25,277 bases of DNA. Origin: an uncultured Candidatus Saccharibacteria bacterium (GTDB taxonomy: Bacteria; Patescibacteriota; Minisyncoccia; CAZCIQ01). Position 1 is the first letter of the stretch. Every line of letters starts with the position of its first letter. Location of the stretch: contig CAZCIQ010000005.1 in NCBI GenBank assembly GCA_964499175.1, forward strand, positions 12,331 through 37,607, in the 5' to 3' direction. The notes beneath the pieces are model-generated. The model had not been told where the DNA came from. It did no database searches and worked only from the letters and a program-made list of their open reading frames with translations. Position numbers and translations under genes: made by a program. Shown piece by piece: positions 6,301-20,381 of this stretch.

Positions 6301-6674
6301 AAGCAGAGCGTCAAAAAGTTTTTGGAAGTATGAAAAAAGAAGATATCCAAAACTTTGATTACGCAGGATTAAAAACCAGAACAACGCCAATTGATTTGGC
6401 GAAAATTATAGACGATATGATAAAATCATTTAATATCGGACATCTTAAAGCATTATATGAAAAAGAAGGCCAAATGCGGGAAGATTTTGTAAACAGATTA
6501 AAAGTAAATGTTGAAAAAGATCTTGGCAAAACACCTTCTTTAGGTGAAGCTCCCGGAAGCACGGTTAACGCCAATGAAATAGCCGATTATATGGCAAAAA
6601 AATTAAAAAGACCTGAAATGGCAAATTCCATAAGAACAGGTCCTAGTGTGCGTGAAATATTAGGCTTACCATAA
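3366..6674 (+). CDS. virB6: VirB6/TrbL-like polytopic T4SS inner-membrane protein, 1102 aa. Signal peptide, about 7-8 TM helices and a large loop in the first ~430 aa. An Ala/Gly-rich linker is followed by a ~650-aa lysine/glutamate-rich hydrophilic C-terminal extension with internal repeats.
   Basis: The hydrophobicity pattern (FLIFVILQITISPLISFAAPAAAP signal, multiple TM blocks, cysteine-rich loop CEDVYTD...NCDPLVPNCGFG) fits VirB6/TrbL topology. Position is upstream of the VirB3-like and VirB4 genes. Family call made by eye. Confidence 0.5.
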   Translation: MKKNCKTKNKINFKIKNYFLIFVILQITISPLISFAAPAAAPVNDFKNFEKTIGDVPCDLKVSCWVVSVMAWIGYRILQIVNVFFYVSVQIFNLSANLSLNYAAYSKNTAVAVYNGWKLARDFMNLFFIFVILFIAISIILQLHTYGSQKVLFRLIGVAIFINFSFFVTQQVIVASNSMALFFAKSNDVSVFSSPIVTALNPQNTLKGYHITVKSIAESTKKMDVEQRKKVCEDVYTDAKITSIDIKNCDPLVPNCGFGKAEKDRCLAGAENKLDAKNTEAMLKDLEDSLNPETALLPVIITTIGGIAVILTACFIFLAGAIMFVLRTVVLWILLILSPIAFMSFALPSGESFMRKWWSRLFKEAFFAPAMMFMLFIVFKIITYKDPATNLTFLERFVLQNNQTGIGESFVFNFYLVLQYIFLLILLGSSLVVARSLGAKGSSVAVSWGSKAAYFAGGAAAGALITRPARRYAAGAAEKIATAKPEGRVGKALSGLAGLTGITAASRLIAGGEKKRIEDVEKQWSKYSPKETAASIGSGKFLTREGLVGRVGALAKENKLDLLKPEQLRQAHKYMSQLGMDTSKIETYMPSLAKDDAAREKAIQSQSPDKVGGILKNTEEFAQKRDAAGNVVGPNDNQKHLEKYWGEGHLEEADKAAQTDKTGKTKESLKEFFDAMAREYKTTNSDDVIKGLESEGKKALADAIRNKSKGLGGTKDMDKIIPELNTTLTPQGKMDLKAANQKYNPSKMDDITSGLEARGNFKLAKALKTEEGETIFKKNATGGKDFETGSQLTAQKAKQTLQLNDAGVANIIKAAIPAPGKTVSEEDKKKTVDTLNAADTKRMVALLEELSATERRELRQMLKSRDAKLEQKVGTAERERTEQTLKLEDQEIADRMKKVTATSSEEERKEVANIGITANDKKLLEILEKLSPSERKELKNVADTTDVKLAERLVKSYPELATQKTITMPNGTTKPESPEAERQKVFGSMKKEDIQNFDYAGLKTRTTPIDLAKIIDDMIKSFNIGHLKALYEKEGQMREDFVNRLKVNVEKDLGKTPSLGEAPGSTVNANEIADYMAKKLKRPEMANSIRTGPSVREILGLP

Positions 6675-6713
6675 GTATAAAAAATTAGAAATAACTAAAA
6701 GCTAAAATTAATT

Positions 6714-7604
6714 ATGCAATATACAACAAAACAACTGCAAGAAAAATACAAGTCTTTACCTGAAGATTTAAAAGACGCGATATGGAGCACCGCGTCCGCC
6801 GAAATCATTCAATCCATAGGAAAAAAATACGGTTTAAATGTGGAACAAGTAGGAAAACTGGCTTCGGAAACAGGTCTTGTGCTTTTAGGCTTATCTCATC
6901 CAAAGGATTATATTAAAAGCCTGTCGGCAAACATAACGATTGAGATTGACACAGCAAGAAAAATTGCCGAAGAAGTTAATAATGGAATCTTTTCAAAAGT
7001 TAAAGAACACTTAAAAAAATTACATGGAATAGATACGGGAATTCCCCAACCAATAGCGCCGGAAAAAAAACAAGAATTTCAAAAACCAATATCACCCTCT
7101 CCGATTTCACCACTACCTCCGCATTCTCCGTCTCCGCTTTCATCTTCTCCGCCTAAAAATCCTTTAGAGCTTTTTCAAAAACACGAACTGGAAAAACAAA
7201 ATTCCCCTATAAATCCCGTATCAGAAATACAGCCGAAAAAAGAAGTTAGCTTTTTCCCAAAACAAGCAGAACCGCCCGCGTTAATTCTTAAACAAACAGA
7301 GTTGCCGGCGCCAAAATCTGCCGAACCGCCTGCGACAACATCAGCGCCCACTCCCGCGTCAACGCCCCCACCTTTGCAAACACCGAAACCAATTGAGCCG
7401 CCTGCTCCAATAATACCAACGCCGCCAAATAATGTTGTAAAAACATTAGAACCAAATCCGATAAAACAAACGGAAAATCCTTTAATTTTCACTGAAAAAA
7501 TAAGAGAAGAACCGCACAGAGACCAAAGTCAAACAATTGAAATTAAACCGGACGCTTTAAAAATTTACGAAAAAGGAAGCGACCCTTACAGGGAACCGAT
7601 ATAA
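6714..7604 (+). CDS. Hypothetical protein. A ~115-aa N-terminal globular region is followed by a proline/serine-rich low-complexity C-terminal region (PSPISPLPPHSPSPLSSSPP...).
   Basis: 296-aa ORF in the T4SS block. The low-complexity Pro-rich tail is reminiscent of wall-spanning or surface linker regions. Confidence 0.45.
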   Translation: MQYTTKQLQEKYKSLPEDLKDAIWSTASAEIIQSIGKKYGLNVEQVGKLASETGLVLLGLSHPKDYIKSLSANITIEIDTARKIAEEVNNGIFSKVKEHLKKLHGIDTGIPQPIAPEKKQEFQKPISPSPISPLPPHSPSPLSSSPPKNPLELFQKHELEKQNSPINPVSEIQPKKEVSFFPKQAEPPALILKQTELPAPKSAEPPATTSAPTPASTPPPLQTPKPIEPPAPIIPTPPNNVVKTLEPNPIKQTENPLIFTEKIREEPHRDQSQTIEIKPDALKIYEKGSDPYREPI

Positions 7605-7618
7605 ATAATTAATTATGT

Positions 7619-8032
7619 ATGCAATTTCACGTTCCACAATTTATAGAAGTAGAAAATAAAATTTTCGGACCGCTCACCTTCAAACAATTCGCTTATCTTA
7701 TTGGCGGAGCTGGATTAATATTTTTAATTTACACGCAACTCCCTTTATGGCTCACTGTTTTGCTCGCGATTCCGGCGGGCGGTATGTCGTTCGCCTTGGC
7801 GTTTTTAAAAATACACGGAAAACCTTTTATTGAGGTGGTTGAAAAAGCGATAAAATATTTTTCCGGAGCGCGGCTTTATATATGGAAAAAGCCCACGGCA
7901 GGCAGGCAAAAAGAAAATATTATTCAAAAAATCGGAACTGAAATGAAATCAGGACAAACAATACCCAAGCTTACGCGAAACAAACTTCAAGACCTCGCTT
8001 GGAGCTTGGATGTTAAAGAAAAAGTCAAATAG
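7619..8032 (+). CDS. PrgI-family / VirB3-like small membrane protein. In this family a conserved N-terminal motif is followed by two TM helices.
   Basis: 137 aa. N-terminus FHVPQFIEVENKIFGPLTFKQFAYLIGGAGLIFLIY matches the PrgI/VirB3-like pattern, followed by LWLTVLLAIPAGGMSFALAFL. Lies immediately upstream of the VirB4 N-terminal fragment, which is the canonical VirB3-VirB4 order. Confidence 0.5.
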   Translation: MQFHVPQFIEVENKIFGPLTFKQFAYLIGGAGLIFLIYTQLPLWLTVLLAIPAGGMSFALAFLKIHGKPFIEVVEKAIKYFSGARLYIWKKPTAGRQKENIIQKIGTEMKSGQTIPKLTRNKLQDLAWSLDVKEKVK

Positions 8033-8037
8033 CTTTT

Positions 8038-8100
8038 TATAAGCTTTTGGCTTATAGCTTTTAGAAGTTTAAAATACCTAAAAGCTAACAGCTATAAGCT
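8038..8100 (+). promoter_or_regulatory. Cluster of short hairpins and repeats upstream of the VirB4 N-fragment. These are tataagc-ttttg-gcttata (8038-8056) and agcttttag ... ctaaaagct (8056-8064 / 8078-8086), with a repeated tataagct motif at 8038-8045 and 8093-8100.
   Basis: Inverted and direct repeats read directly from sequence. Candidate operator or attenuator between the PrgI-like and VirB4-N ORFs. Confidence 0.3.
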
Positions 8101-8107
8101 GAATCAA

Positions 8108-8716
8108 ATGCCCCAAACATCATCAAAATCAAGCCAGGAATTCGTGCCTATAAAAGAAGTTCGCGACGGCATAGTAGTTCTGAAAAACGGATCTTTCCGC
8201 GCCATACTTATGGCGTCTTCTTTGAATTTTGCTTTAAAATCGCAAGATGAACAAACGGCAATAATTGACCAATATCAAAATTTTTTAAATTCATTGGATT
8301 TTTCTCTGCAAATTTTTGTCCGTTCGCGCCCAATAAACATAAATTCTTACATTGATTATTTAAAAGAACTTGAAAAAGCCCAAATGAACGAACTTTTAAA
8401 AATACAGGCGAGAGAATATATGGAATTTATAAAAACTTTGGTTGAAACGACAAACATCGTTTCAAAAAATTTTTACATATCAATACCCTTTAATCCTCCC
8501 GTATTAGAGCTTAAAAGCGCTGAAAACGTTTTTTCAAAAATAAGCGGCATTTTCACTAAATCCAAATCAAGCCCGGAGCAGCAAAAAGAAATGAAATTTG
8601 ACGAATACAAAGAACAGCTGATCCAAAGAGGGGCGGTGGTGAGCCAAGAGCTGGCGCGCCTCGGCGTGCGGACAGTGCCGCTTGACACCGAAGATGTTGT
8701 TGAATTATTTTACTAG
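8108..8716 (+). CDS. virB4: VirB4/TrbE/CagE-family T4SS ATPase, N-terminal fragment (202 aa) only. It ends in ...RLGVRTVPLDTEDVVELFY and then a stop codon.
   Basis: VPIKEVRDGIVVLKNGSFRAILMASSLNFALKSQDEQTAIIDQYQNFLNSLDFSLQIFVRS is the characteristic N-terminal region of Gram-positive-type VirB4 ATPases (PrgJ/TcpF/Tn916 Orf16-like). The rest of the protein is encoded 4.9 kb downstream at 13598-15403. Confidence 0.55.
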   Translation: MPQTSSKSSQEFVPIKEVRDGIVVLKNGSFRAILMASSLNFALKSQDEQTAIIDQYQNFLNSLDFSLQIFVRSRPININSYIDYLKELEKAQMNELLKIQAREYMEFIKTLVETTNIVSKNFYISIPFNPPVLELKSAENVFSKISGIFTKSKSSPEQQKEMKFDEYKEQLIQRGAVVSQELARLGVRTVPLDTEDVVELFY

Positions 8717-8795
8717 CGTTATAACCCAGGAGAAGAAGAAAAAAGCAAAATACCGACTTTAAATCAGTAAAACGCGCGAATTACGAAATTTCGGA

Positions 8796-8830
8796 TAAAA
8801 TAAAATCCCGTGAACATTCACGGGATATAA
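8796..8830. terminator. Bidirectional rho-independent terminator between convergent genes. Stem atcccgtga / tcacgggat has T/A-rich runs on both sides.
   Basis: Perfect 9-bp inverted repeat at 8796-8804 / 8809-8817 with a 4-nt loop. Plus-strand downstream is ataatttttatt. The minus-strand reading is followed by ttttatttta. Confidence 0.55.
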
Positions 8831-8848
8831 TTTTTATTCTACACTTTT

Positions 8849-10132
8849 TTATTCTTTGTCTTTGAAGCTTTTTATCGCTTCTTGAATGATTTTAACAATA
8901 CCAGCCGTGCCGTCAAACACGGTCAAGTTATCTATATTTTTAAATGCCTCCGTTATCATTTTTTCTGTTAAATCATACTTTACAGCTTCTTCTCCTTTGC
9001 TTATACCCAAAGCCTCTATTCTCGCCTTTTGCCGCAATTCTACTTCTTTTGCATCAATAGCAGCTTGAGTAAAGCCTTCTTTTTCTTGAGCAACTGCCAA
9101 TTTTATTCTTTGCTCTTTTTGAGCCTCAGCATCAATTAAGGTTTTTTCAGCTTGAGCTTCAGCGTTTACAATAGTTTTCACTTTATTGTAAACTGCCGCG
9201 GCGGCATCTTTCATCTCTTGCTTAATTAATACTATCGGGTCCAAATCAATAATTCTTGGATCCCCGACTCCTTCAATACCCCAATCAACAAAAAGAGGGG
9301 TTAAATCATTAATAATTTCTATAGGCAATTCTTTTTTGCCATTTTCCAAAATTGGCTCCATTTCATGACTGCCGCAATATTTTCTAACGGCGGCAATCAT
9401 AAATCCTTTTATAGTGACTCCGTCTTCAACAATTATTTTATTTATAAGATACTTTAACGGATCAACAACCCTCCAAACCAGTTCCATTTTAATAACAATG
9501 TATTTTCTGTCTTTTGTATAAATGTCTAGTGTTGGCCCCTCTTCGTCTTCAGCAGAGCCCACAAGCTCTTTTCTAGACTCTAATGAAAAACGAACCATTT
9601 TATCTATAAAACCATACATCAACATTGGCCCTCTTTTAACTATTCTTATGGGCTTGCCCAAACGAACAAGCACCGCGATTTCCGTTTCACCAACCTTACT
9701 TACGAAAAAAACCCAAAACCAAAAAATCGGGCTTATGAGAAGCGTAAGAGCGCTGTAAGGCCGCGCCTGCGGAACATAAACGATAAACAAAATCGGCGGG
9801 ACAAAACTAAAGGCGCCATATAACAATAAAACAAACGCGCGCGCGATCCACAATATCAGCTTTTGAGAATTATCATCCGAGTCCGGCGAGGTTAAATCAG
9901 GCGGTTCCAAATCAGGCGGTTCCAAATCTGAAATTTCAGGTTCATCCATTTTTCTTCTCCTTTTTGTTAAAATTCTTTTCAATAAGCCGTAAAAGAATTT
10001 TAAAACATCATAAAATGTTTTAAAAAGAAATAACAAAACTACAAGCATCATCTTCACCACAAAACTCAGAACGCTGTAAATTCCATAAGGCAACTTTTTC
10101 AAAAGCCGCGCCACCCAAAGTAAAACATTCAT
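8849..10132 (-). CDS. SPFH / band-7 (stomatin/prohibitin/flotillin-like) membrane protein, 427 aa. N-terminal TM helices, an acidic proline-rich linker, an SPFH domain and a C-terminal coiled-coil.
   Basis: SPFH-like core GETEIAVLVRLGKPIRIVKRGPMLMYGFIDKMVRFSLESRKE...IVIKMELVWRVVDPLKYL. Hydrophobic N-terminal segments. Ala/Glu/Lys-rich C-terminal coiled-coil. Perfect SD AAGGAGG lies 6 nt upstream of the ATG (minus strand). Confidence 0.65.
   Translation of the reverse strand: MNVLLWVARLLKKLPYGIYSVLSFVVKMMLVVLLFLFKTFYDVLKFFYGLLKRILTKRRRKMDEPEISDLEPPDLEPPDLTSPDSDDNSQKLILWIARAFVLLLYGAFSFVPPILFIVYVPQARPYSALTLLISPIFWFWVFFVSKVGETEIAVLVRLGKPIRIVKRGPMLMYGFIDKMVRFSLESRKELVGSAEDEEGPTLDIYTKDRKYIVIKMELVWRVVDPLKYLINKIIVEDGVTIKGFMIAAVRKYCGSHEMEPILENGKKELPIEIINDLTPLFVDWGIEGVGDPRIIDLDPIVLIKQEMKDAAAAVYNKVKTIVNAEAQAEKTLIDAEAQKEQRIKLAVAQEKEGFTQAAIDAKEVELRQKARIEALGISKGEEAVKYDLTEKMITEAFKNIDNLTVFDGTAGIVKIIQEAIKSFKDKE
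9895..9924 (-). repeat. Perfect 15-bp tandem duplication (aaatcaggcggttcc x2), in frame within the SPFH gene. It encodes the EPPDL-EPPDL repeat of the acidic linker.
   Basis: Read directly from sequence. The protein shows SDLEPPDLEPPDLTSPD. Confidence 0.6.
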
Positions 10133-10149
10133 CTATTCCTCCTTTTCTT

Positions 10150-10429
10150 TCCTTTCTTTATTATTAGGATTTTTCTTAAACTACAGGAGTCCGACTCCCG
10201 CAGTTTATCCAAAGTTATCAAAAAACTATTGCTTATATTTCTATACCATAAATAATATTAAAAAGCAATAGTTGACCCCGTTAGAAATATCCAATTACAG
10301 GTTTTGTCAAAAGCATATTTTAAAAAAATTCAATAGCGAGATTTCTAACGGGGTTGACCCAAAATTATTTATTTGTTATTTTGTTATTAGAAGCTGAACA
10401 AAAAATCTTACGCATAAGGAGTTTAAAAA
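10150..10429. promoter_or_regulatory. Divergent promoter region with nested inverted repeats. These are ctattgctt / aagcaatag (10216-10224 / 10253-10261) and ccccgttagaaat / atttctaacgggg (10267-10279 / 10331-10343, 13 bp perfect). Both repeat units are flanked by gTTGACC. A ggagtc-c-gactcc palindrome sits at 10187-10199.
   Basis: Read directly. Lies between the divergently transcribed SPFH gene (minus) and the TM coiled-coil gene (plus). TTGACC at 10344-10349 and tgtcaa at 10293-10298 (TTGACA on minus) are -35-like. Confidence 0.4.
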
Positions 10430-11110
10430 ATGTTGTTTAAAAAATTGTTGTTGGGACTCGCGATTTTTATTTATATTGGAGCAGTGTTGTTAATTTTTGA
10501 TTCATTAAACAAAAAAAATCCAAACGCCGCAGAAAAAACAGAAAAACAAAAAATTACAGCGAAAAAAAATGGTAAAGAACACTCTAAGACAAAAATAAAT
10601 CCAATAGATCTAAAAATAAACAAACTTTTTAGAAAAATCAACAATCGGCTTTCAAGATTGGAAAGAAGCGATAAAAACAAAAAGGAAGATATAAAAAGAA
10701 TAAAACAGTCTTTAGAAGAAATTAAAAATTTTACTTATAATCTAAGCGCTGTAATGGAAGACTTGAATAAGAAAATCAAAGACGACGAAAGCAAGATAGA
10801 AGCCGCGCAAAGAACGGCGGATGACGCTCTTGAAACCATAGAAAATATAATATCAGATTTAGAGACGCTTAATTCACGAATGGAAGAAAATAGAAAAACA
10901 ACCGAAGAAATAAAAAAAAATTCGGACGCAACAACAAAACTGGCTTTAAAAGCCGAAACAACATCTAAAAATGCTGAACTGGTAGCCGAGCAAGCGAAAT
11001 CCTTATCAAGGAAATCAATGGAATCGCTGCGCCAGCACGCCGGCAAAACGTTCTTTGGACATATTCATGACGAAAAAATCATGAAAGACACCAACAATAA
11101 TTTAAAATAA
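10430..11110 (+). CDS. Membrane-anchored coiled-coil protein, 226 aa. One N-terminal TM helix, then a long K/E-rich alpha-helical region.
   Basis: N-terminus LLLGLAIFIYIGAVLLIFD. Remainder has heptad-like charged repeats. SD aaggag lies 9 nt upstream. Followed by a canonical terminator. Confidence 0.5.
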   Translation: MLFKKLLLGLAIFIYIGAVLLIFDSLNKKNPNAAEKTEKQKITAKKNGKEHSKTKINPIDLKINKLFRKINNRLSRLERSDKNKKEDIKRIKQSLEEIKNFTYNLSAVMEDLNKKIKDDESKIEAAQRTADDALETIENIISDLETLNSRMEENRKTTEEIKKNSDATTKLALKAETTSKNAELVAEQAKSLSRKSMESLRQHAGKTFFGHIHDEKIMKDTNNNLK

Positions 11111-11737
11111 ATCTGCTAGCCCCGAGTACTCGGGGCTTTTTTGTTTTAAAAATTCAATCTTTTTATTTATTTCTGAAAAAATCGGCGCGTTTTTCGCTAA
11201 AACATTTATTTTCTCAAGCCTCTTTTTTAAAACAATAAGCGTTTCCTTATATTGTCCGCGGAAAGCGTTTGTAAGTTTCATTATCTCATTTTCCCAATGA
11301 GAATTATTAAAAGAATTGATAAAAGTAGCGAGAAACTCTTCTTCATCTTCTTCGCTGTGGCCGCCATAAGTATGCAGAAATTTCCTTTCGTCTAAATATT
11401 CAAAAAGATATTTGAATGCCAAGAATTTAAAAGTGTTTTTTTCATCTGAAACTTCAATCGGCGTCCATTTATTTTTCAAATCAAGAAAATTAGTTTTAAA
11501 TTCACCTTGGCTTATTTTGTATTCATAATCAAATAAATGCATTGACTCGTGAAACGCGGTTTCAAATAAATCAAACGAAAGATCCTTTTCGCTATCTTTA
11601 AGCTTTGCGTAATGAAAAGCAACGGCGCTTCTGTCTTTTTTGTTAAAAAAGGCGTTATTGGTTGTTGAATCAACCACATATAACTGCTTTGTTTTTTCTC
11701 CCTTTTTAAATCCGAATAGATTTTCCGCTTTTTGCAT
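11102..11737 (-). CDS. Putative zinc metallopeptidase-like protein with an HExxH motif (FHESMHLF), 211 aa.
   Basis: HESMH motif plus downstream acidic/His residues (HTYGGHSEEDEEE). No other family signature recognised. Last gene of a three-gene minus-strand operon. Confidence 0.4.
   Translation of the reverse strand: MQKAENLFGFKKGEKTKQLYVVDSTTNNAFFNKKDRSAVAFHYAKLKDSEKDLSFDLFETAFHESMHLFDYEYKISQGEFKTNFLDLKNKWTPIEVSDEKNTFKFLAFKYLFEYLDERKFLHTYGGHSEEDEEEFLATFINSFNNSHWENEIMKLTNAFRGQYKETLIVLKKRLEKINVLAKNAPIFSEINKKIEFLKQKSPEYSGLADLF
11113..11147 (+). terminator. Rho-independent terminator gccccgagtactcggggc + ttttttgtttt. It is embedded in the 3' coding end of the convergent minus-strand gene.
   Basis: Perfect 7-bp GC stem with a 4-nt loop, followed by a T-run. 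The same bases encode ...SPEYSGL... of the 211-aa minus-strand ORF. Confidence 0.7.
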
Positions 11738-11767
11738 TCCACGCTCTATATGAGGAAAAAGACGGCT

Positions 11768-13231
11768 TCACTTTTTTTTTTCATTATGATTCAAATTTCC
11801 GTAAACTCCGTATTCATTATTGCTTCCCAAAAAAAATATCGGCTTCTCTTCTCTGGCAAAGAACAAATCTTTTAGTTCACCGGCTCCCAAAAACTCCGTT
11901 TCAATATTAAGCGGCTCCACAAACTCTTTAGAATCTTTATTCTTCTTAAACTTAATTGGAGGCCAAATCGTAATAGTTTTATCTATTTTACTTTTATCAT
12001 AATTATTTTGCGCGATATATTTTGTTATGTAATTTCCAAATTTATCAAAACGCGACGAGAAGCTCGGCTTTTCGGAAGAGGAAAGCGAATACTTTTCAAA
12101 TTTAATTTCTTCTATTTGACCGTTTATATTTAAAGGATATTCAATTTTTTTAAAATCTTCGCTGTTTAAAGTTAAATCTATTTCTTCTTCCGCGGGGCGG
12201 CCTTCAAAAGCCAATTTTACGCTAACCGCGTCAAAATTATTTGAAAGATTAATAATCGCTTCTTTTTGTTCTTCATTTAATTTCTTTGTTTTAATTGCCC
12301 TAATAAATACATCGGATTCATTTAAAGTCTTGGGATTTATTTCATCCAAAGAATGTTGAAGGTTTTCCATTTTTTCAAACCCTTCTTTTAAAATTATTTT
12401 TATTTCTTGAACGGCTTGATCAAGTTTATCCGTTTTTACCGCCTTATAATAAAGAAATGGGTTTTGTAAATCCAGCCAGTTTTTTAATATTATTAAAAAA
12501 TCGTTGTTTATATTTTTAATTTCCAGAGAAAACGGCGATATTTTAATATTTTTTTCCAATGGCATTATTTCCGCGGAAAAATAACGCTTAGAATCCATGT
12601 CAAGATAATCAAGAACATCTTCGGATATTATGCTATTTACTATAAGTTCTTTTCCCCCTAAAATACTTTTAGACAATTTATTAAAAATTTCCTCTTCTGT
12701 TTCTTCATTTTGAAATTCAATATTAGCGCTTATACCACTCTCAATTTCAAATTTATGTCCAAGCGCTTTATATAAAGCTATATTATTTTTTAATTTAAGA
12801 TTATCTTCTTTGGCTTTAAGTTCCAATGTAAAATATAATTTTTCCTCAAACGAGCTTCTGCCTATTTTTTCAACCATTATAGGCCTTGCTCTCGCTTGAG
12901 GCAAAGAACTGCTTACCAAAGCATTGCTTAATCTGCAAAAATATAAAAGCCCCGCTAAAACTAACGCCTTATTTACCATTCTTTCGTTTATTTTTCTGCC
13001 TATCTTTGTCAAAAATCCTTCAGAATCTTTGCGAAGCCCGCTTTCTTTAACTTCCCACATTTTTAACAATTCTTCCTCGGTGGTTTTGTCTTCAATTATA
13101 GCATCGGAAATGCCCTCTTCAGATTGTTCTTCATTTCCACCCCCTTTTTCCAAAAATTCTGATTCGTCTTTTTCTTCAAGATTTTCCTTAAACTTTAAAC
13201 CCGCCTTGTCGGCGGACAAATTATTTTTCAT
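11768..13231 (-). CDS. Hypothetical 487-aa protein with an acidic N-terminal region. No recognisable domain.
   Basis: Long uninterrupted ORF. Overlaps the upstream 85-aa ORF by 11 bp and lies 30 bp upstream of the HExxH gene, giving an operon arrangement. Confidence 0.45.
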   Translation of the reverse strand: MKNNLSADKAGLKFKENLEEKDESEFLEKGGGNEEQSEEGISDAIIEDKTTEEELLKMWEVKESGLRKDSEGFLTKIGRKINERMVNKALVLAGLLYFCRLSNALVSSSLPQARARPIMVEKIGRSSFEEKLYFTLELKAKEDNLKLKNNIALYKALGHKFEIESGISANIEFQNEETEEEIFNKLSKSILGGKELIVNSIISEDVLDYLDMDSKRYFSAEIMPLEKNIKISPFSLEIKNINNDFLIILKNWLDLQNPFLYYKAVKTDKLDQAVQEIKIILKEGFEKMENLQHSLDEINPKTLNESDVFIRAIKTKKLNEEQKEAIINLSNNFDAVSVKLAFEGRPAEEEIDLTLNSEDFKKIEYPLNINGQIEEIKFEKYSLSSSEKPSFSSRFDKFGNYITKYIAQNNYDKSKIDKTITIWPPIKFKKNKDSKEFVEPLNIETEFLGAGELKDLFFAREEKPIFFLGSNNEYGVYGNLNHNEKKK

Positions 13232-13478
13232 AGCTTTCTTTTATTAACTCCGCTAAAATTTTATTTACTTGTTCTTTTTCGTATTCATAAACATCCAAAA
13301 CCGCGCGTTTGTCTTTTTTCTTTAGCGCTTCAATTTTTTTATAAAAAAGCTTTTCCAAATAAGAAAAAGTTTCGGGATTTTTGCTGAAAAATTCGCTTAA
13401 AACAAACTTTTCCCGCAACGGCAGTTTAGAAAAAGCTCCTAAAAAGAGATTGCTTTGTGTTTGTTTGGTTTTTAACAT
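13221..13478 (-). CDS. Small hypothetical protein (85 aa). First gene of the minus-strand operon.
   Basis: ORF translationally overlapped with the 487-aa ORF. Charged and helical in character. Confidence 0.3.
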   Translation of the reverse strand: MLKTKQTQSNLFLGAFSKLPLREKFVLSEFFSKNPETFSYLEKLFYKKIEALKKKDKRAVLDVYEYEKEQVNKILAELIKESYEK

Positions 13479-13560
13479 AATTCAAAATTGCTTATTACTA
13501 TTTTAAATATAACAAAGAAAATAGCCGATACGCAAATTAAGCTGGTGCTTTGAATTTCCG

Positions 13561-13592
13561 TTGTAAAGATATTCGCCTTTTGGTATTATTAA
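13561..13592 (+). promoter_or_regulatory. Candidate sigma70-type promoter for the VirB4 C-fragment. -35 TTGTAA (13561-13566), 17-bp spacer, extended -10 TGgTATTAT (13581-13589). The -10 ends ~8 nt before the ATG at 13598, so the transcript may be leaderless or nearly so.
   Basis: Motif spacing read directly. No SD upstream of the ATG. Confidence 0.3.
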
Positions 13593-13597
13593 ATAAA

Positions 13598-15403
13598 ATG
13601 TCTTTATTTCAAAAAACAAAAATTGAAAAAAACGAAGATGACAAAATAATACCGGTATTTCCCGAGGAAATTTATAAAGAAGCCGTTTTGGAATTGCAGG
13701 ATATAATCGCTCCCTCGGCTCTTGAAATAAGTTCAAATCACATAAGACTCGGTGAAAAATATTGCAGAACGATATTTATATTTTCTTATCCGCGGTTTGT
13801 TTCAACCGGCTGGCTTTCGCCAATTATAAACCTTGATAAAATTTTTGACATATCAATATTCATTCATCCCATAAGCACCTCTTCCATATTAAGAAAGCTG
13901 CAAAACAAAACCGCCGCGGTGCAGGCGCAAATAAGCGAAAGGGAAGACAAAGGATTCGTCCGCGATCCAATGCTTGACACCGCCTATCAAGACTTGGAAG
14001 ACTTAAGAGATAAACTAATGCAGGCAACGGAAAAAATATTTGACGTAGGGCTTTACATTACGGTCTACGCCGATTCGCTGGAAGACTTAAATAAAGCCGA
14101 AACAGAAATAAGATCAATACTTGAAGCGCGTCTTGTCTACGCCAAACCGGCTCTTTTTGAACAAAAAGAAGGGCTTGAGAGCGTGTTTCCTCTTTCAACC
14201 GATTCGCTTGGCATAAGTTCAAAACTTAACACCGCTCCTCTTTCAAGCATTTTTCCTTTTGTGTCTTTTGACTTAACTTCTAATAAAGGGATTCTCTACG
14301 GCATAAACCGCCACAACAGCAGTTTAATTTTGTTTGACAGATATTCAATGGAAAATTACAATTCCGTTGTTTTTGCCAAAGCCGGCGCCGGAAAAAGTTA
14401 TTTCAGCAAACTGGAAATATTGCGCTCATTAATGATTGGCGCCGAAGTGATAGTCATAGACCCTGAAAGAGAATACGAACACTTGGCGGAAACTGTCGGC
14501 GGAAGTTTTTTTAAAATATCCCTGACTTCGGAGCACCACATAAATCCTTTTGACTTGCCGCCTCCAAGAGAAGACGAATCGCCATCGGATATTTTACGAA
14601 GCAACATCATAAACTTAATCGGCATCTTAAGAATTATGCTGGGAAGCATCACTCCCGAGGAAGACTCCATACTTGATAAAGCGATAACGGAAACTTACGC
14701 CTCGCGCGACATAACTCCTGACGCCGATTTTTCAAACAGGCCCGTACCGATTTTATCGGATTTGGAAATGATTCTGGCAGGAATGGCGGGCGGAGAAGAT
14801 TTAGCTCAGCGCCTTAAAAAATTTACGACAGGCACGTGGGCCGGATTTATAAACCAGCCGACAAATGTTGAAATAAATAAAAAATTAACCGTTTTTTCAA
14901 TAAGAGATATGGAAGACGAATTACGTCCTGTCGCTATGTATCTCATAATACACCACATCTGGAATGAAGTGCGGAGAGAAATTAAAAAAAGACTTTTGGT
15001 GGTGGACGAGGCTTGGTGGATGATGAAATCAGAGGACGGAGCTTCGTTTCTTTACGGCTTGGCGAAAAGAGCGAGAAAATATTTTTTAGGGCTTTCCACG
15101 ATTACCCAAGATGTCGGCGACTTTTTAAGTTCGCCCTACGGCAAACCTATAATAACAAACTCCTCAATACAAATCCTTCTAAAGCAGTCTCCCGCCACGA
15201 TAGAAACTCTTAAAGAAGTTTTTAATTTGACGGACGAAGAAAAATTCATACTTTTGGAATCTGATGTGGGAGAAGGAATATTTTTTGCCGGGCTAAAACA
15301 CGCGGCAATAAAAGTAGTGGCGTCTTACACCGAAGACCAAATTATCACAACCGATCCGGCTCAACTTTTAGAGATTAAAAAAGCGAGAGAGGAGTTGAGT
15401 TAA
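13598..15403 (+). CDS. virB4: VirB4/TrbE/CagE-family T4SS ATPase, C-terminal ~600 aa (CagE_TrbE_VirB region plus AAA ATPase). The probable start is ATG 13598. The ORF track's TTG start at 13550 lies upstream of the putative promoter.
   Basis: IAPSALEISSNHIRLGEKYCRTIFIFSYPRFVSTGWLSPIINLD...DISIFIHPI is the conserved VirB4 middle region. Walker A is VVFAKAGAGKSYFSK and Walker B is RLLVVDEAWWMM. It lacks the ~200-aa N-terminal region that is encoded at 8108-8716. Confidence 0.8.
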   Translation: MSLFQKTKIEKNEDDKIIPVFPEEIYKEAVLELQDIIAPSALEISSNHIRLGEKYCRTIFIFSYPRFVSTGWLSPIINLDKIFDISIFIHPISTSSILRKLQNKTAAVQAQISEREDKGFVRDPMLDTAYQDLEDLRDKLMQATEKIFDVGLYITVYADSLEDLNKAETEIRSILEARLVYAKPALFEQKEGLESVFPLSTDSLGISSKLNTAPLSSIFPFVSFDLTSNKGILYGINRHNSSLILFDRYSMENYNSVVFAKAGAGKSYFSKLEILRSLMIGAEVIVIDPEREYEHLAETVGGSFFKISLTSEHHINPFDLPPPREDESPSDILRSNIINLIGILRIMLGSITPEEDSILDKAITETYASRDITPDADFSNRPVPILSDLEMILAGMAGGEDLAQRLKKFTTGTWAGFINQPTNVEINKKLTVFSIRDMEDELRPVAMYLIIHHIWNEVRREIKKRLLVVDEAWWMMKSEDGASFLYGLAKRARKYFLGLSTITQDVGDFLSSPYGKPIITNSSIQILLKQSPATIETLKEVFNLTDEEKFILLESDVGEGIFFAGLKHAAIKVVASYTEDQIITTDPAQLLEIKKAREELS

Positions 15404-15425
15404 GTTAATTAAAACATTAATTTCT

Positions 15426-15968
15426 ATGCAACAAATAGAAGAACAAAGACTGGCAAGATTAAATGAAAATTTAAACGCGAAAAAAACAAACGACAACAAG
15501 CAATACAACCGATTTCACGAAGAATTTGAAAAAGACGAAGACTATAGAGATACGGAAATTTCACCTGAAGAATTTAAAGAAATAAGGGCCCAAACACCGG
15601 AAATACCTCATTTTCCTTTACTGATTTTTACGATCGCCATGCTTAAAGATTTTATTGATATTATGGTTGTTTTTATAACAGTAACAACAGCGGGAATGGG
15701 ACTTGTATTAACGGTTATAGTCTGGATTATAACCGCGATTATGGCGGCGGTGATATGGCTTTGGATATTTAATAAATCAACATTCATAAGAAAATGGATT
15801 ATAAAAAAAGCCGCAAGAAGAATTGCCTTGTTTTTCTTAATAAAAATAACTCCTCTTTTATATGTGGCGCCAACCGCTTCTTTAACCGTATATCTTGTTT
15901 ATAAAAGCGAGTCGGGTTTTATTGGAAAAATAATTGACGCTGTGGAAAAAGTGGAAAAAATTGTTTAA
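15426..15968 (+). CDS. Small polytopic membrane protein, 180 aa with 3-4 TM helices. A T4SS-associated hypothetical.
   Basis: Hydrophobic blocks LLIFTIAML, VVFITVTTAGMGLVLTVIVWIITAIMAAVIWLWIF and ALFFLIKITPLLYVAPTASLTVYLV. Lies immediately downstream of VirB4. Confidence 0.45.
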   Translation: MQQIEEQRLARLNENLNAKKTNDNKQYNRFHEEFEKDEDYRDTEISPEEFKEIRAQTPEIPHFPLLIFTIAMLKDFIDIMVVFITVTTAGMGLVLTVIVWIITAIMAAVIWLWIFNKSTFIRKWIIKKAARRIALFFLIKITPLLYVAPTASLTVYLVYKSESGFIGKIIDAVEKVEKIV

Positions 15969-15991
15969 CAGCCAAAAAATATGGTATAATA
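15961..15991 (+). promoter_or_regulatory. Promoter with a perfect extended -10 TGgTATAAT (15982-15990) and a weak -35 TTGTTT (15961-15966).
   Basis: Read directly. Overlaps the stop of the upstream ORF. Confidence 0.4.
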
Positions 15992-15999
15992 AAATCATT

Positions 16000-16135
16000 G
16001 AAGAACGTTAAAATTTAATTTGGGAAATTGTGTTGTAAAATTGAAATCCTGCAATAAGTGGAGAAAGTCTTGAGAAAATGCGGAAATTTACGCCAGGTCC
16101 TTTGGGATTTAATTTTACAACACAATTTCCCTTTT
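16000..16135 (+). ncRNA. Candidate small structured RNA or 5' leader. A near-perfect 27-bp inverted repeat (gggaaattgtgttgtaaaattgaaatcc / ggatttaattttacaacacaatttccc, 16021-16048 / 16101-16127) encloses a ~52-nt loop. It is followed by ttttaaaa.
   Basis: Long inverted repeat read directly. An extended -10 promoter lies ~10 nt upstream. The ORF at 16165 starts ~30 nt after the structure. Confidence 0.3.
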
Positions 16136-16164
16136 AAAACCTATAGCTTTAAAGATGTTTTTCA

Positions 16165-17172
16165 GTGATTTTGTATCCAAACAAAACTATGAAAAAAATA
16201 TTAAAATTTGCCGTAGCGCCGCTTCTTGTTTATATTTTTTATTTTAGTTCAACTTTCGCGGCAATGAATTTTCCAAGCTCAAACGACTTCAATATTTCTC
16301 CTTCAAACAGATTTCCATACCCAAACGAAGAAATAGAGGCCAAAATAAGAGACGCCACCTTTGACATTAACCGCTCTTACATAAACTGGTATTTAAACGA
16401 GAAACTGATAAGTGAAGGGAGGGGAAACGATAAAATAAATTTTAAAGCGGGGGATACGGGTTCTAAAATAAATCTTTCCGCCATAATCCAAACCCCGAAC
16501 GGAACAGCCGCGAAAAAATCCGTTGTTTTAAATGTTTCAGATATTGATTTGCTCTGGAGCGCGAACACCTACGCTCCTTATTTTTATAAAGGAAAAAACA
16601 TGGCAACCCCGATGTCAGAAGTAAGGGTCGGCGCCATTCCTTATTTCAACTCTCCAAACAAAAAAACGGCTTCGGAAAATTTATTTTTCAAATGGTTTTT
16701 AAACGATAATTTGGAAAATCAAGGACAAGGAAAAGACGCGCACACCTTTAAAACCGGAGTTTTTAGCGATGATGATTATAATGTCAAAGTGGAAATCGCG
16801 AGTGCCGACAACAGACTTTTCCAACAAAAATCAATAACCGTGAAAACGGAAAAACCAGAAATACTATTTTACGAATACTCTCCGCTTCTCGGAGTAAAAA
16901 GTCAGGAAACTGTTTCGCAATTTAAAACTTTTGCGGGCGATTATAAGCAATTTGTAGCCGAACCTTTTTATGTTCCTTACGACAAAAAAGAGGAATTAAA
17001 TTACGAATGGAGCGTGAACGGCCAAAAACTAAAAAATTTAAACGCGCCCTTAAACATAATCAACTTTGCGTCGGAAAAAGGCCAAGAAGGTCTGTATAAT
17101 ATGAATTTAACAGTATCATATAAAAATTTATTAGAAAAAATCAGCAATAGTTTTTCAGTGAATTTAGAGTAA
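16165..17172 (+). CDS. Secreted hypothetical protein (335 aa) with an N-terminal signal peptide.
   Basis: KKILKFAVAPLLVYIFYFSSTFAA is signal-like. Rich in N/K/S. No recognised domain. Confidence 0.5.
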   Translation: MILYPNKTMKKILKFAVAPLLVYIFYFSSTFAAMNFPSSNDFNISPSNRFPYPNEEIEAKIRDATFDINRSYINWYLNEKLISEGRGNDKINFKAGDTGSKINLSAIIQTPNGTAAKKSVVLNVSDIDLLWSANTYAPYFYKGKNMATPMSEVRVGAIPYFNSPNKKTASENLFFKWFLNDNLENQGQGKDAHTFKTGVFSDDDYNVKVEIASADNRLFQQKSITVKTEKPEILFYEYSPLLGVKSQETVSQFKTFAGDYKQFVAEPFYVPYDKKEELNYEWSVNGQKLKNLNAPLNIINFASEKGQEGLYNMNLTVSYKNLLEKISNSFSVNLE

Positions 17173-17183
17173 AGCAATAGACG

Positions 17184-17216
17184 ACTTTTACAGAACATGC
17201 GACGTCCTGTAAAAGT
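17184..17216 (+). promoter_or_regulatory. Stem-loop acttttacag-(13 nt)-ctgtaaaagt overlapping the annotated start of the pilin-like gene. It may be an intercistronic terminator or stabiliser.
   Basis: Perfect 10-bp inverted repeat. The loop contains a gacgtc palindrome. Confidence 0.35.
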
Positions 17217-17652
17217 AAAAAATATGGAAAAAATTGGCAGAATAACTTTTTATACATCATTTTTACTTATAAATTTATTTTATATTTCTTTTGTGTCTTT
17301 TGCAGCGGATATAAACCTTACCCCTCCCGGCATAGGAGGAGCTATAGATCCCTCAACAGGAAACCCGATACCGGGCACACCGGCAACCACGCCAGATTTT
17401 ATAGAATACTTAGACTGGCTTTATAAAATACTACTCGGGTCAACCGGAATTTTAGCTTTAATTATAATAGTGGCCGGAGGTATTATGTATGTGTTAGCGG
17501 GAGCGTCAGGCAAACCTCAAGATATAACACAAGCCAGAACAATGATACTGTCCGCCATAGCCGGTCTGCTTCTCGCCCTAGGCTCTTGGATAATATTAAA
17601 CACTATAAACCCCGACTTATTAAAAAAAGGTTTAGACTTAAACAAATATTAA
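17197..17652 (+). CDS. VirB2/TrbC-like T4SS pilin candidate. Signal peptide, then two hydrophobic helices separated by a short polar loop. The true start is probably ATG 17224 (MEKIG...).
   Basis: Signal sequence SFLLINLFYISFVSFAAD. Helix 1 is LGSTGILALIIIVAGGIMYVLAGASG. Loop is KPQDITQAR. Helix 2 is TMILSAIAGLLLALGSWIILNTI. This is the typical VirB2/TrbC architecture. Confidence 0.5.
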   Translation: MRRPVKVKNMEKIGRITFYTSFLLINLFYISFVSFAADINLTPPGIGGAIDPSTGNPIPGTPATTPDFIEYLDWLYKILLGSTGILALIIIVAGGIMYVLAGASGKPQDITQARTMILSAIAGLLLALGSWIILNTINPDLLKKGLDLNKY

Positions 17653-17653
17653 T

Positions 17654-18841: not shown

Positions 18842-19303
18842 TTAAACCGGTTTTATCACAACCTTTCTGTTTTCCCCGTCTCCCATACTTTCCGTTTTAA
18901 TATCCGGATATTCGCTTAAAACGGTGTGAATTATTCTTCTTTCAAAAGAGTTCATCGGTTCAAATTCAACTTCTTTTTTAAAAAATCTTACCCTCTGCGC
19001 GTTCATCTTGGCGACTTCTTTCAAATTATTAATTTTCTTGGAGTAATAACCGTTAACATCCAAAGAAAACGGAGGCATTTCTTTATTTTTGTCCTTAAAA
19101 ATTTTATAAGCCATCTTTTTTAAAATATGAGAAAAAGAGAAAAGATTCTGGCCGTTCTCTCCTATTAAAATTCCGGCTTCGTTTGTGGTTATCGTGAAAA
19201 CAGGATAATCAACACCGGACACAATTTCTATGGTGCCATTTATTCCCATCTTTTCCAAGAAAGACTCGGTTATATTTTTAATTGCATCGTAATCTTTTGA
19301 CAT
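18842..19303 (-). CDS. jag: Jag/KhpB-type RNA-binding protein (KH-like plus R3H domain).
   Basis: R3H signature ...FERRIIHTVLSEYPDIKTESMGDGENRKVVI. Position downstream of yidC fits the conserved rnpA-yidC-jag operon. Confidence 0.7.
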   Translation of the reverse strand: MSKDYDAIKNITESFLEKMGINGTIEIVSGVDYPVFTITTNEAGILIGENGQNLFSFSHILKKMAYKIFKDKNKEMPPFSLDVNGYYSKKINNLKEVAKMNAQRVRFFKKEVEFEPMNSFERRIIHTVLSEYPDIKTESMGDGENRKVVIKPV

Positions 19304-19314
19304 ATTATTGATAA

Positions 19315-20049: not shown

Positions 20050-20381
20050 TTTATTAATTTCACCTCTCTTAAGGCGCTAACAATTTCTTCTTTAAGCTTA
20101 TTAAAATTAGCTTTTAACACCTCTTTTTTAAATAAAAAAATCATCAAACACGGCGCGTTAAACTCATGAAGCAATCCAAGAACAACATTTCTCGCCCTTC
20201 TCTTAATCCTGTTCCTATGCGCGGCATGCTTTGAAACCGAAGAAGAAACAACAAAACCCGCCTTTATTCCTTCGCCGCTTTCTTTGTAAATCAAGTTGAA
20301 ATCAGCGTAGGAATTTTTCTTCCCTTTTAAGAACAATGGCTTAAAATGCTTTTTTTCTAAACGGTTTTTTAAAGGAAGCAC
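20046..20381 (-). CDS. rnpA: Ribonuclease P protein component RnpA (GTG start).
   Basis: Basic 111-aa protein with the RNR motif ...AAHRNRIKRRARNVV. Immediately downstream of rpmH. Overlaps yidC by 4 bp. Confidence 0.75.
   Translation of the reverse strand: MLPLKNRLEKKHFKPLFLKGKKNSYADFNLIYKESGEGIKAGFVVSSSVSKHAAHRNRIKRRARNVVLGLLHEFNAPCLMIFLFKKEVLKANFNKLKEEIVSALREVKLIK

What the first reader, a model, noticed from the sequence alone, without database searches (positions are those of the whole stretch)
8108..15403. VirB4 T4SS ATPase encoded as two separate ORFs, interrupted by a 4.9-kb five-gene module
The characteristic N-terminal ~200 aa of a Gram-positive-type VirB4 (PrgJ/TcpF-like: ...DGIVVLKNGSFRAILMASSLNFALKSQDEQTAIIDQYQNFLNSLDF...) ends with a stop at 8716. 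The conserved middle and ATPase regions (IAPSALEI...YPRFVSTGWLSPIINLD..., Walker A AGAGKSY, Walker B VVDEAWW) resume at ~13598. The sizes 202 aa and ~600 aa sum to a normal VirB4 length of about 800 aa. The intervening DNA carries five genes, four of them on the opposite strand, with their own promoters, SD sequences and terminators. The C-fragment has its own extended -10 promoter. This is therefore either a functional split VirB4 made as two polypeptides or a T4SS inactivated by an insertion. Either outcome is unusual, and the intervening module is uncharacterised.
Basis: partly seen in the sequence, partly recalled or inferred. Interest (0 to 1): 0.85.

Follow-up and report, generated by a model that had tools for sequence, protein, structure and literature searches.

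The report
Normal two-gene VirB4 with intergenic insertion
The two "halves" of the secretion ATPase VirB4 are separate genes in essentially all relatives of this ultra-small (Patescibacteria) bacterium, a published arrangement, and here a few extra genes have landed in the gap between them without breaking a gene.

Summary
ORF 8108-8716 corresponds to about residues 21-198 of a contiguous 797-aa VirB4, and ORF 13598-15403 (601 aa) to residues 203-757. Five ORFs lie between them, four on the minus strand.

The "interrupted gene" reading is wrong. In 85 related Patescibacteria loci the N-part is always its own 211-232-aa ORF with its own stop. The 601-aa ATPase ORF usually starts about 5 bp downstream, mostly in another frame, and the two are never fused. 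This is the TrsD-like + VirB4 pair already described for Patescibacteria T4SS (PMC12102498).

What is special here is an insertion into the intergenic spacer:
- A Band_7/SPFH gene is shared with the closest relative (L001).
- A window-specific 3.3-kb segment follows it. It carries a coiled-coil membrane protein and a conserved two-gene module: a small protein plus a ~709-aa HExxH protein that is broken by an in-frame TGA.

Since the Band_7 insertion, virB4 (dN/dS 0.03) and the trsD-like gene (0.12) have stayed under purifying selection, so the insertion did not kill the system.

The trsD-like gene has a GAG→TAG change that removes 18 conserved C-terminal residues. This could be a recent mutation or a sequence error.

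Overall this is ordinary and low in interest.

The parts
7619..8032 (+). PrgI/VirB3-like gene immediately upstream of the trsD-like gene
   Evidence: Pfam PrgI E=1.1e-9, 39.2 bits against a cut-off of 27. The PrgI gene sits directly upstream of the trsD-like gene in all five gene-annotated related loci, and 84 of 86 loci hold a tblastn match to it.
8108..8716 (+). trsD-like gene, a stand-alone homologue of the first ~200 residues of VirB4. Here it is 202 aa because of a premature TAG at 8714-8716.
   Evidence: Homologues are 202-249 aa and carry a precomputed PF26593 'TraC-like' hit. It maps to VirB4 model positions 4-210 of 792. Its fold matches TrwK/VirB4. dN/dS against L001 is 0.117.
8717..8770 (+). 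Remnant of the ancestral trsD-like C-terminus: 17 in-frame codons (RYNPGEEEKSKIPTLNQ) plus the original TAA stop
   Evidence: It aligns with the conserved LYNPGE.EKGK tail of the 220-aa homologues. L001 has GAG where the window has TAG.
8805..8826 (.). Bidirectional terminator-like hairpin between the trsD-like and Band_7 genes
   Evidence: Found on both strands by the terminator scan. An equivalent hairpin is present in L001.
8849..10132 (-). Band_7/SPFH (HflK-like) membrane protein gene, the older insertion shared with L001
   Evidence: Pfam Band_7 E=7.5e-14, 52.6 bits against a cut-off of 23.6. L001 has a 370-aa orthologue in the same place. dN/dS is 0.145. It is absent from the other 84 loci.
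10278..13549 (.). Window-specific 3.3-kb segment, absent from L001. Its genes have GC 0.30-0.32.
   Evidence: The blastn synteny breaks between window 10277 and 13550, which correspond to L001 11481 and 11476. None of its four ORFs is found in the other 86 loci.
10276..10353 (.). Inverted repeat with 13-nt perfect arms (CCCCGTTAGAAAT), flanked by two TTGACC copies, at the left junction of the 3.3-kb segment
   Evidence: Read directly from the sequence. Only these two exact copies exist in the window. Its significance is unknown.
10430..11110 (+). 226-aa protein with a hydrophobic N-terminal segment (probable membrane anchor) and coiled-coil character, function unknown
   Evidence: Only coiled-coil-type weak hits. 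The hydrophobic segment is read from the translation. A terminator-like hairpin lies at 11118-11137.
11768..13231 (-). N-terminal 487 codons of a ~709-aa gene, ending at an in-frame TGA (11768-11770)
   Evidence: Colinear with residues 10-497 of the 724-aa P0123 and with other 650-890-aa proteins. It is in the same frame as 11102-11737. Homologues have F, Y or L at the TGA position.
11102..11737 (-). C-terminal 211 codons of the same gene, with invariant HExxH..D, GGH and other residues (a putative metal-binding or zincin-like domain)
13221..13478 (-). 85-aa partner gene that precedes the HExxH gene with an 11-bp overlap
   Evidence: 31% identical (E=9e-13) to the 78-aa gene upstream of P0123 in L087. 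L088 has an 83-aa gene with the same 11-bp overlap.
13561..13589 (+). Promoter-like site for virB4: TTGTAA, 17 nt, TATTAT with an upstream TG. The -10 box ends 8 nt before the ATG.
   Evidence: Consensus scan. The same motif is at the same position in L001. Function is inferred, not shown.
13598..15403 (+). virB4 gene of the Patescibacteria type: 601 aa, comprising the second half of the VirB4 N-domain plus the P-loop ATPase C-domain
   Evidence: NCBIfam CD1110-type VirB4 scores 355.4 bits against a cut-off of 325. 4AG5 matches at E=3.7e-41. 96% aa identity to L001 with dN/dS 0.030. Homologues are 601-603 aa.

Best explanation
This is the chromosomal, origin-proximal type IV secretion locus typical of Patescibacteria (Paceibacteria/Parcubacteria-like).

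In this lineage the VirB4 motor is normally made from two genes. A ~220-aa TrsD-like protein is equivalent to VirB4 residues ~1-200. A 601-aa protein supplies the rest of the N-domain plus the ATPase domain. The two genes are usually adjacent and probably translationally coupled. By inference, the two proteins assemble into a VirB4-like unit at the membrane with PrgI/VirB3.

In this genome the short spacer between the two genes has taken up foreign DNA in at least two steps:
1. A Band_7/SPFH gene on the opposite strand, with a bidirectional terminator. This is shared with the closest relative, L001.
2. A 3.3-kb low-GC segment carrying a coiled-coil membrane protein and a small-protein + ~709-aa HExxH-protein module.

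virB4 is now transcribed from its own promoter, which lies so close to the ATG that the mRNA may be nearly leaderless (inferred). No gene was split by the insertion.

Two point nonsense changes are present. One is a TAG that truncates the TrsD-like protein by 18 conserved residues. The other is a TGA that cuts the HExxH gene. They are recent mutations or consensus errors.
For: - Complementary mapping of the two ORFs to VirB4 models and to a contiguous VirB4, and a fold match of the N-part to TrwK/VirB4.
- The N-part is a stand-alone ORF in all 85 related loci. The ATPase ORF starts a median of ~5 bp downstream, mostly in a different frame. The top 120 of more than 7,500 homologues are 202-249 aa. 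Gene calls in relatives show PrgI, then a 218-220-aa gene, then a 601-603-aa gene.
- Literature: TrsD homologues, remotely homologous to the VirB4 N-terminus, are the most abundant T4SS component in Patescibacteria. Of 2,272, 1,664 sit next to virB4. The one in S. epibionticum is listed as essential, and the locus lies near dnaA.
- L001 has only Band_7 between the two genes, and the synteny breakpoints define the extra 3.3 kb.
- Purifying selection since the shared insertion: virB4 dN/dS 0.030, trsD-like 0.117, Band_7 0.145.
- The promoter-like site is conserved with L001.
- TAG and TGA both end other genes in this window. TAG ends PrgI and DnaA, whose lengths match their homologues.
Against: - The TrsD-like ORF lacks its conserved LYNPGE.EKGK tail because of the TAG, so this particular copy may be impaired.
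- With the TGA in the HExxH gene, that makes two nonsense codons within 5 kb, which could indicate local decay.
- Physical assembly of the two polypeptides, transcription from the proposed promoter, and leaderless translation are all inferred and not shown.
- No insertion mechanism was identified: no transposase or integrase, and no convincing terminal repeats or target duplication.
Confidence: 0.85

Rival explanations
1. The T4SS of this genome is being inactivated. The insertion uncoupled the trsD-like gene from virB4, the trsD-like gene then acquired a nonsense mutation, and the locus is decaying.
For: - A premature TAG removes 18 residues, including nearly invariant L204, N206, P207 and E209.
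- A second nonsense codon lies in the neighbouring HExxH gene.
- Insertions of this size between the two genes are rare: 2 of 86 loci.
Against: - virB4 is intact, 96% identical to L001, with dN/dS 0.03. The trsD-like gene has dN/dS 0.117 over the same period, and all other T4SS ORFs in the window are intact.
- The codons after the TAG are still in frame and conserved, so the change is very recent or is an error or variant in a metagenome-assembled consensus.
- The T4SS is essential in the one Patescibacterium tested.
Confidence: 0.1
2. The inserted genes have been recruited as accessory components or cargo of the T4SS. For example, the SPFH protein could scaffold the machine in the membrane, or the membrane and HExxH proteins could be secreted or surface effectors.
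For: - They lie inside the T4SS operon.
- Band_7 is retained in two lineages under purifying selection, dN/dS 0.145.
- The translations of three inserted products (the Band_7 protein, the 226-aa protein and the 487-aa piece) contain hydrophobic stretches that look like membrane segments. This was read by eye; no transmembrane predictor was run.
Against: - Band_7 and the other inserted genes are absent from the other 84 T4SS loci.
- Elsewhere the small + HExxH module sits among housekeeping genes with no T4SS nearby.
- The HExxH gene is broken here.
- The same spacer hosts unrelated selfish-looking four-helix-bundle ORFs in three other genomes. This points to a permissive site rather than functional linkage.
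Confidence: 0.1
3. The split is a recent gene fission caused by the insertion.
For: On the window alone, 202 + 601 aa sum to a VirB4 length, with foreign-looking DNA in between.
Against: - All 85 relatives without the insertion already have two ORFs with a stop, a new ATG and usually a frame change.
- A Bacillales plasmid has the same split.
- The split is published.
Confidence: 0.01

Closest known systems
TrsD-like + VirB4 gene pair of the Patescibacteria chromosomal T4SS (Quinonero-Coronel et al. 2025, PMC12102498; essential locus SEML1_0006-0019 in Ca. Southlakia epibionticum, Wang et al. 2023, PMC10633639)
   Same: - Gene order PrgI/VirB3, then the TrsD-like gene, then virB4, with pilin-like and large membrane proteins around them.
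- Chromosomal location next to rnpA-yidC and dnaA.
- No relaxase domain hit in the ORFs scanned.
- The TrsD-like protein is homologous to the VirB4 N-terminus.

   Different: Here 4.9 kb (five ORFs, representing four genes) separates the TrsD-like gene from virB4, against ~5 bp in most genomes. The TrsD-like ORF is also truncated by a TAG.
TrsD/TraD + TrsE/TraE of staphylococcal pGO1/pSK41-type conjugative plasmids (the MPF_FATA subclass with TrsD; NCBIfam NF041427)
   Same: A small separate protein related to the VirB4 N-terminus is encoded upstream of a shortened VirB4 ATPase. The NF041427 hit has E=1.4e-6. A Pontibacillus plasmid has a 274-aa ORF overlapping a 621-aa CD1110-type VirB4 by 11 bp.
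   Different: The match is only remote: 28 bits against a family cut-off of 200. Those systems are plasmid-borne conjugation machines with relaxase and coupling protein, whereas this one is chromosomal.
Contiguous Gram-positive VirB4 (CD1110 family / PrgJ / TcpF type), e.g. the 797-aa VirB4 of C. botulinum pCDC3875
   Same: The N-part plus the C-part are colinear with residues 21-198 and 203-757. The C-part passes the CD1110 family cut-off.
   Different: That protein is one polypeptide. Here, and in all sampled Patescibacteria relatives, there are two.

Membership tests
VirB4 / CD1110-type T4SS ATPase (applied to 13598-15403) | Score above the curated family cut-off | tested here: met
   NF045971 conju_CD1110 scores 355.4 bits against a cut-off of 325, covering model positions 183-728 of 752.
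VirB4 / CD1110-type T4SS ATPase (applied to 13598-15403) | P-loop ATPase C-terminal domain with Walker A and Walker B motifs | tested here: met
   The 4AG5 VirB4 C-terminal domain matches at E=3.7e-41, and the alignment includes AGAGKS and LVVDEAW. Pfam P-loop_TraG, AAA_10 and DUF87 also hit.
VirB4 / CD1110-type T4SS ATPase (applied to 13598-15403) | Complete N-terminal domain (model positions ~1-200) in the same polypeptide | tested here: not met
   The match begins at model position 183 (CD1110) or 238 (TIGR00929) and at residue 203 of a contiguous VirB4. The missing part is encoded by 8108-8716.
TrsD-like / PF26593 'TraC-like' stand-alone VirB4 N-domain protein (applied to 8108-8716) | Homology to the VirB4 N-terminal ~200 residues | tested here: met
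   TIGR00929 positions 4-210, CD1110 positions 2-121, and BLASTP to VirB4 residues 21-198 at E=2e-11. Foldseek's top 13 hits are all TrwK/VirB4. PF26593 is precomputed on all homologues.
TrsD-like / PF26593 'TraC-like' stand-alone VirB4 N-domain protein (applied to 8108-8716) | Separate ~210-230-aa ORF directly upstream of virB4 | tested here: inconclusive
   It is a separate ORF, but it is 202 aa because of a premature TAG and lies 4.9 kb from virB4. Relatives are 211-232 aa with a median gap of 5 bp.
NCBIfam NF041427 TrsD/TraD (staphylococcal type) | Score above the curated cut-off | tested here: not met
   28.3 bits against a cut-off of 200. It is a remote relative only.
Patescibacteria chromosomal T4SS locus | PrgI/VirB3 next to the trsD-like gene and virB4, a VirB2-like pilin nearby, and proximity to dnaA/rnpA | tested here: met
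   PrgI. T4SS_pilin is weak at 24.1 bits against a cut-off of 26.6. R3H/Jag and DnaA are in the window. There is synteny with the loci. The cumulative GC-skew minimum is at about 20.5-21 kb.
Patescibacteria chromosomal T4SS locus | Absence of relaxase and coupling protein in the cluster | tested here: inconclusive
   20 of the 23 main ORFs were scanned against Pfam and none gave a relaxase or VirD4 domain hit. Several large ORFs have no hits at all, so absence is not proven.
Mobile element (IS, transposon or integrative island) as the origin of the insert | Transposase or integrase gene, terminal inverted repeats, target-site duplication | tested here: not met
   There is no such domain in the five ORFs. 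No convincing terminal repeats or duplication were found. The only candidates are a TTGACC duplicate and a 13-nt-arm hairpin at one junction.
SPFH/Band_7 (applied to 8849-10132) | Band_7 domain above the Pfam gathering score | tested here: met
   PF01145 scores 52.6 bits against a cut-off of 23.6. TIGR01933 HflK scores only 49.6 against 159.4, so it is not an HflK equivalog.

The most novel reading that the evidence does not exclude
The rare uncoupling of the trsD-like gene from virB4, with virB4 on its own possibly leaderless promoter, together with retention of an SPFH/Band_7 gene between them in two lineages, could reflect a functional remodelling. The SPFH scaffold and perhaps the membrane or HExxH proteins might have become lineage-specific accessory parts or substrates of the Patescibacteria T4SS, and the two VirB4 pieces might be regulated independently.
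Probability: 0.08. Interest if true: 0.45.

Novelty: new member of a known kind. Interest (0 to 1): 0.2.

Why it matters
It matters mainly as a correction. A VirB4 that looks "split" in CPR/Patescibacteria genomes should not be scored as a pseudogene or an insertion event, because the TrsD-like + VirB4 pair is the native form of the motor.

The locus also gives a small natural experiment. The two genes can be separated by ~1.3-4.9 kb and opposite-strand genes while both stay under purifying selection. Tight translational coupling is therefore not obligatory.

The trsD-virB4 spacer appears to be a permissive landing site: there are 5 independent-looking insertions among 86 loci.

The small-protein + ~720-aa HExxH-protein module is an uncharacterised conserved pair that may be worth a separate look.

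Tried and rejected
- The local Pfam copy gave no hit for the N-part, because PF26593 is not in that copy.
- A profile of the N-part against PDB sequences found nothing meaningful. Homology was shown instead with NCBIfam, BLASTP to a contiguous VirB4, and a fold search.
- I considered TAG or TGA recoding as an explanation for the in-frame stops and rejected it. TAG ends PrgI and DnaA at lengths that match their homologues, and TGA ends three other ORFs.
- I considered a transposon or integrative-element origin for the insert. There is no transposase or integrase and no terminal repeats or target duplication.
- PADLOC and PHROGs gave only coiled-coil noise, so no defence-system or phage assignment is possible.
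- Rfam and tRNA scans of the window were empty.
- Word-indexed searches made the 487-aa and 211-aa ORFs look like ORFans. The exhaustive HMMER search overturned that.
- The window's own contig could not be retrieved by exact protein look-up.
- The first metagenome scan query failed because no conserved stretch was available. The second returned only one locus.
Full report
**Observation**

The window (GC about 0.35) carries a plus-strand T4SS-like gene cluster from about 121 to 18832. It is followed by a minus-strand block of an R3H/Jag-like gene and two further ORFs that match the yidC and rnpA positions of related loci, and then by dnaA. The cumulative GC-skew minimum lies at about 20.5-21 kb, so this is an origin-proximal chromosomal region.

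Within it, ORF 8108-8716 (202 aa) follows a PrgI/VirB3-like gene at 7619-8032. ORF 13550-15403 contains a VirB4-type ATPase. Between them lie five ORFs, four on the minus strand.

The true start of the ATPase ORF is ATG 13598. That gives 601 aa, the length of the orthologues.

**Are the two ORFs complementary parts of VirB4?**

Yes.

- NCBIfam places the N-part (tested with its 87%-identical full-length homologue P0002) on positions 4-210 of 792 in TIGR00929 VirB4 and 2-121 of 752 in the CD1110-type model. The C-part covers 238-724 and 183-728 and passes the CD1110 family cut-off at 355 bits against 325.
- Against a contiguous 797-aa VirB4 from C. botulinum plasmid pCDC3875, the N-part aligns to residues 21-198 and the C-part to 203-757.
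- C-part residues 228-584 match the crystal structure of a VirB4 C-terminal domain (4AG5, E=3.7e-41).
- An AlphaFold model of the N-part (pLDDT 77.7) finds the R388 TrwK/VirB4 chains as its only credible structural neighbours: the top 13 hits, with probability 0.99-1.00.

**Is the split caused by the insertion, or is it unusual?**

No to both.

- A database search with the N-part returned more than 7,500 significant hits. The best 120 are all stand-alone proteins of 202-249 aa from Patescibacteria, annotated with PF26593 "TraC-like".
- Gene calls in relatives show PrgI, then a 218-220-aa gene, then a 601-603-aa gene, in direct succession.
- I fetched 80 GTDB species representatives and analysed them together with six loci obtained by protein look-up. 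In all 85 loci where both parts are present, the N-part is an ORF of 211-232 aa with its own stop. The ATPase ORF begins with ATG (TTG in one locus) a median of ~5 bp downstream, with a range from -17 to about +100 bp in most. It is mostly in a different reading frame, and in several cases the genes overlap as ATGA. None is fused.
- The arrangement is published. Quinonero-Coronel et al. [quoted passage not shown] They found 2,272 homologues, of which 1,664 are associated with virB4. The one in Ca. S. epibionticum ML1 is listed as essential, and the T4SS is often near dnaA (Wang et al. 2023).
- The same split exists on a Pontibacillus plasmid, where a 274-aa ORF overlaps a 621-aa CD1110-type VirB4 by 11 bp.
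- The N-part also weakly matches the staphylococcal TrsD/TraD model.

**What is specific to this window?**

The spacer between the two genes has been invaded.

The closest relative found is L001 (trsD-like 87% and VirB4 96% aa identity). It has only a minus-strand Band_7/SPFH gene between them, giving a 1.3-kb gap. Nucleotide synteny between the window and L001 runs through PrgI, the trsD-like gene and Band_7 (7462-9997), then a short block (10225-10277), and resumes at 13550.

The window therefore carries two layers of insertion:
- An older Band_7 insertion shared with L001, including a bidirectional terminator hairpin at 8805-8826.
- A lineage-specific 3.3-kb segment (about 10278-13549) whose genes have GC 0.30-0.32 and are absent from the other 86 loci.

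No transposase, integrase, terminal repeats or clear target duplication were found. The only feature at the left junction is a 13-nt-arm hairpin flanked by two TTGACC copies.

In three other genomes (L014, L061, L063) the same spacer holds a ~125-133-aa ORF. By its sequence motifs, which I recognised rather than tested, it looks like the four-helix-bundle "23S rRNA intervening sequence" type. This suggests the site simply tolerates insertions.

**Contents of the 3.3-kb segment**

- ORF 10430-11110 encodes a 226-aa protein with a hydrophobic N-terminal segment and only coiled-coil-type weak hits.
- The 487-aa and 211-aa minus-strand ORFs looked like ORFans in word-indexed searches. An exhaustive HMMER search found ~650-890-aa relatives in which the 487-aa ORF aligns to residues ~10-497, and the 211-aa ORF aligns to residues 518-714 of the same protein at 40% identity.
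- The two ORFs are in the same frame, separated by a single TGA (11768-11770) where homologues have F, Y or L. They are one ~709-aa gene with a nonsense codon.
- The upstream 85-aa gene (13221-13478) is homologous to the small gene that precedes the large one elsewhere, with the same 11-bp overlap. This is a conserved two-gene module of unknown function. Elsewhere it sits among housekeeping genes, not at T4SS loci.

**State of the T4SS genes**

Between the window and L001, dS is about 0.65-0.72. Over that divergence virB4 has dN/dS 0.030, the trsD-like gene 0.117, PrgI 0.178 and Band_7 0.145. The Band_7 insertion predates this divergence, so separating the two VirB4 pieces did not release them from selection. 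This argues against inactivation by insertion.

virB4 has a promoter-like site (TTGTAA, 17 nt, TATTAT with an upstream TG, at 13561-13589) that is conserved in L001. Its -10 box ends 8 nt before the ATG, so the transcript may be nearly leaderless. That is inference only.

However, the window's trsD-like ORF ends at a TAG where L001 has GAG. Seventeen in-frame codons then follow, still encoding the conserved ...YNPGEEEK... tail, up to the ancestral TAA. The lost tail contains nearly invariant residues L204, N206, P207 and E209. TAG and TGA are ordinary stops in this genome. The change is therefore a very recent nonsense mutation, a population variant, or a consensus error. I cannot distinguish these without the reads.

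**Mechanism**

Shown:
- There are two complementary ORFs.
- The two-gene organisation is lineage-wide.
- The insertion lies in the spacer.
- Both genes are under purifying selection.

Inferred from established T4SS biology (in the R388 structures, 7O41/8RTB, the VirB4 N-domain contacts VirB3 and VirB8 at the membrane):
- The TrsD-like protein and the 601-aa protein associate to rebuild a VirB4-like protomer that docks on PrgI/VirB3 and powers the Patescibacteria T4SS.
- Here the two are expressed from separate transcription units.

**Verdict**

The locus is a new member of a known kind, with a rare (2 of 86) multi-gene insertion in the trsD-virB4 spacer and two local nonsense codons. Interest is low.

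Noticed in passing
window 11102-13231 (minus strand); in-frame TGA at 11768-11770: The 487-aa and 211-aa ORFs are one ~709-aa gene cut by a single in-frame TGA. It is homologous to 650-890-aa proteins with invariant HExxH..D and GGH motifs. Together with the 85-aa gene at 13221-13478 it forms a conserved two-gene module of unknown function that is found elsewhere outside T4SS loci.
   Followed up: yes
window 8714-8770: A GAG→TAG change truncates the TrsD-like protein by 18 conserved residues. The remaining codons and the original TAA are still intact downstream. This is a recent mutation or a consensus error.
   Followed up: partly
L014 2158-2644; L061 10639-11099; L063 4314-4757: In three other Patescibacteria genomes the trsD-virB4 spacer contains a ~125-133-aa ORF. 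By its motifs it resembles the four-helix-bundle / 23S rRNA intervening-sequence protein family (recognised from memory, not tested). The spacer seems to be a recurrent insertion site.
   Followed up: partly
window 10271-10359: A perfect 13-nt inverted repeat (CCCCGTTAGAAAT ... ATTTCTAACGGGG, 52 nt apart) is bracketed by two TTGACC hexamers. It lies exactly at the left edge of the window-specific 3.3-kb segment. The second TTGACC doubles as a -35-like box for the gene at 10430.
   Followed up: partly
window 13584-13600 and L001 11508-11528: The virB4 -10-like box (TATTAT with an upstream TG) ends only 8 nt (window) or 10 nt (L001) before the ATG, and no Shine-Dalgarno sequence is visible. The virB4 mRNA may be leaderless or nearly so.
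   Followed up: no
window 18842-23499: The T4SS cluster abuts the replication-origin region. An R3H/Jag-like gene (Pfam R3H) and two further minus-strand ORFs match the yidC and rnpA positions of related loci. They are followed by dnaA (20734-22092) and a probable dnaN (22366-23499, not domain-tested). The cumulative GC-skew minimum is at ~20.5-21 kb.
   Followed up: partly
window 9998-10224: About 228 nt have no counterpart in L001. They encode a 57-61-aa hydrophobic N-terminal extension of the Band_7 protein (427 aa against 370 aa) plus its upstream region. It is unclear whether the true start is the upstream ATG (10132) or the internal Met near 9949.
   Followed up: no
window 3366-7604: The 1102-aa ORF has no domain hits. 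It shows locally raised GC (up to 0.45) and strong AT skew. It is only 47% identical to its L001 counterpart, although the flanking genes are 65-85% identical. The next ORF (6714-7604) is very proline-rich and low-complexity. Both may be fast-evolving surface or channel components of the T4SS.
   Followed up: no
L091 (Pontibacillus plasmid NZ_CP062975.1) 3384-6063; L090 (C. botulinum pCDC3875) 3441-5834: Firmicutes plasmids show both states of the gene. One has a split 274-aa + 621-aa pair overlapping by 11 bp. The other has a contiguous 797-aa VirB4. These would be useful for dating the fission.
   Followed up: partly
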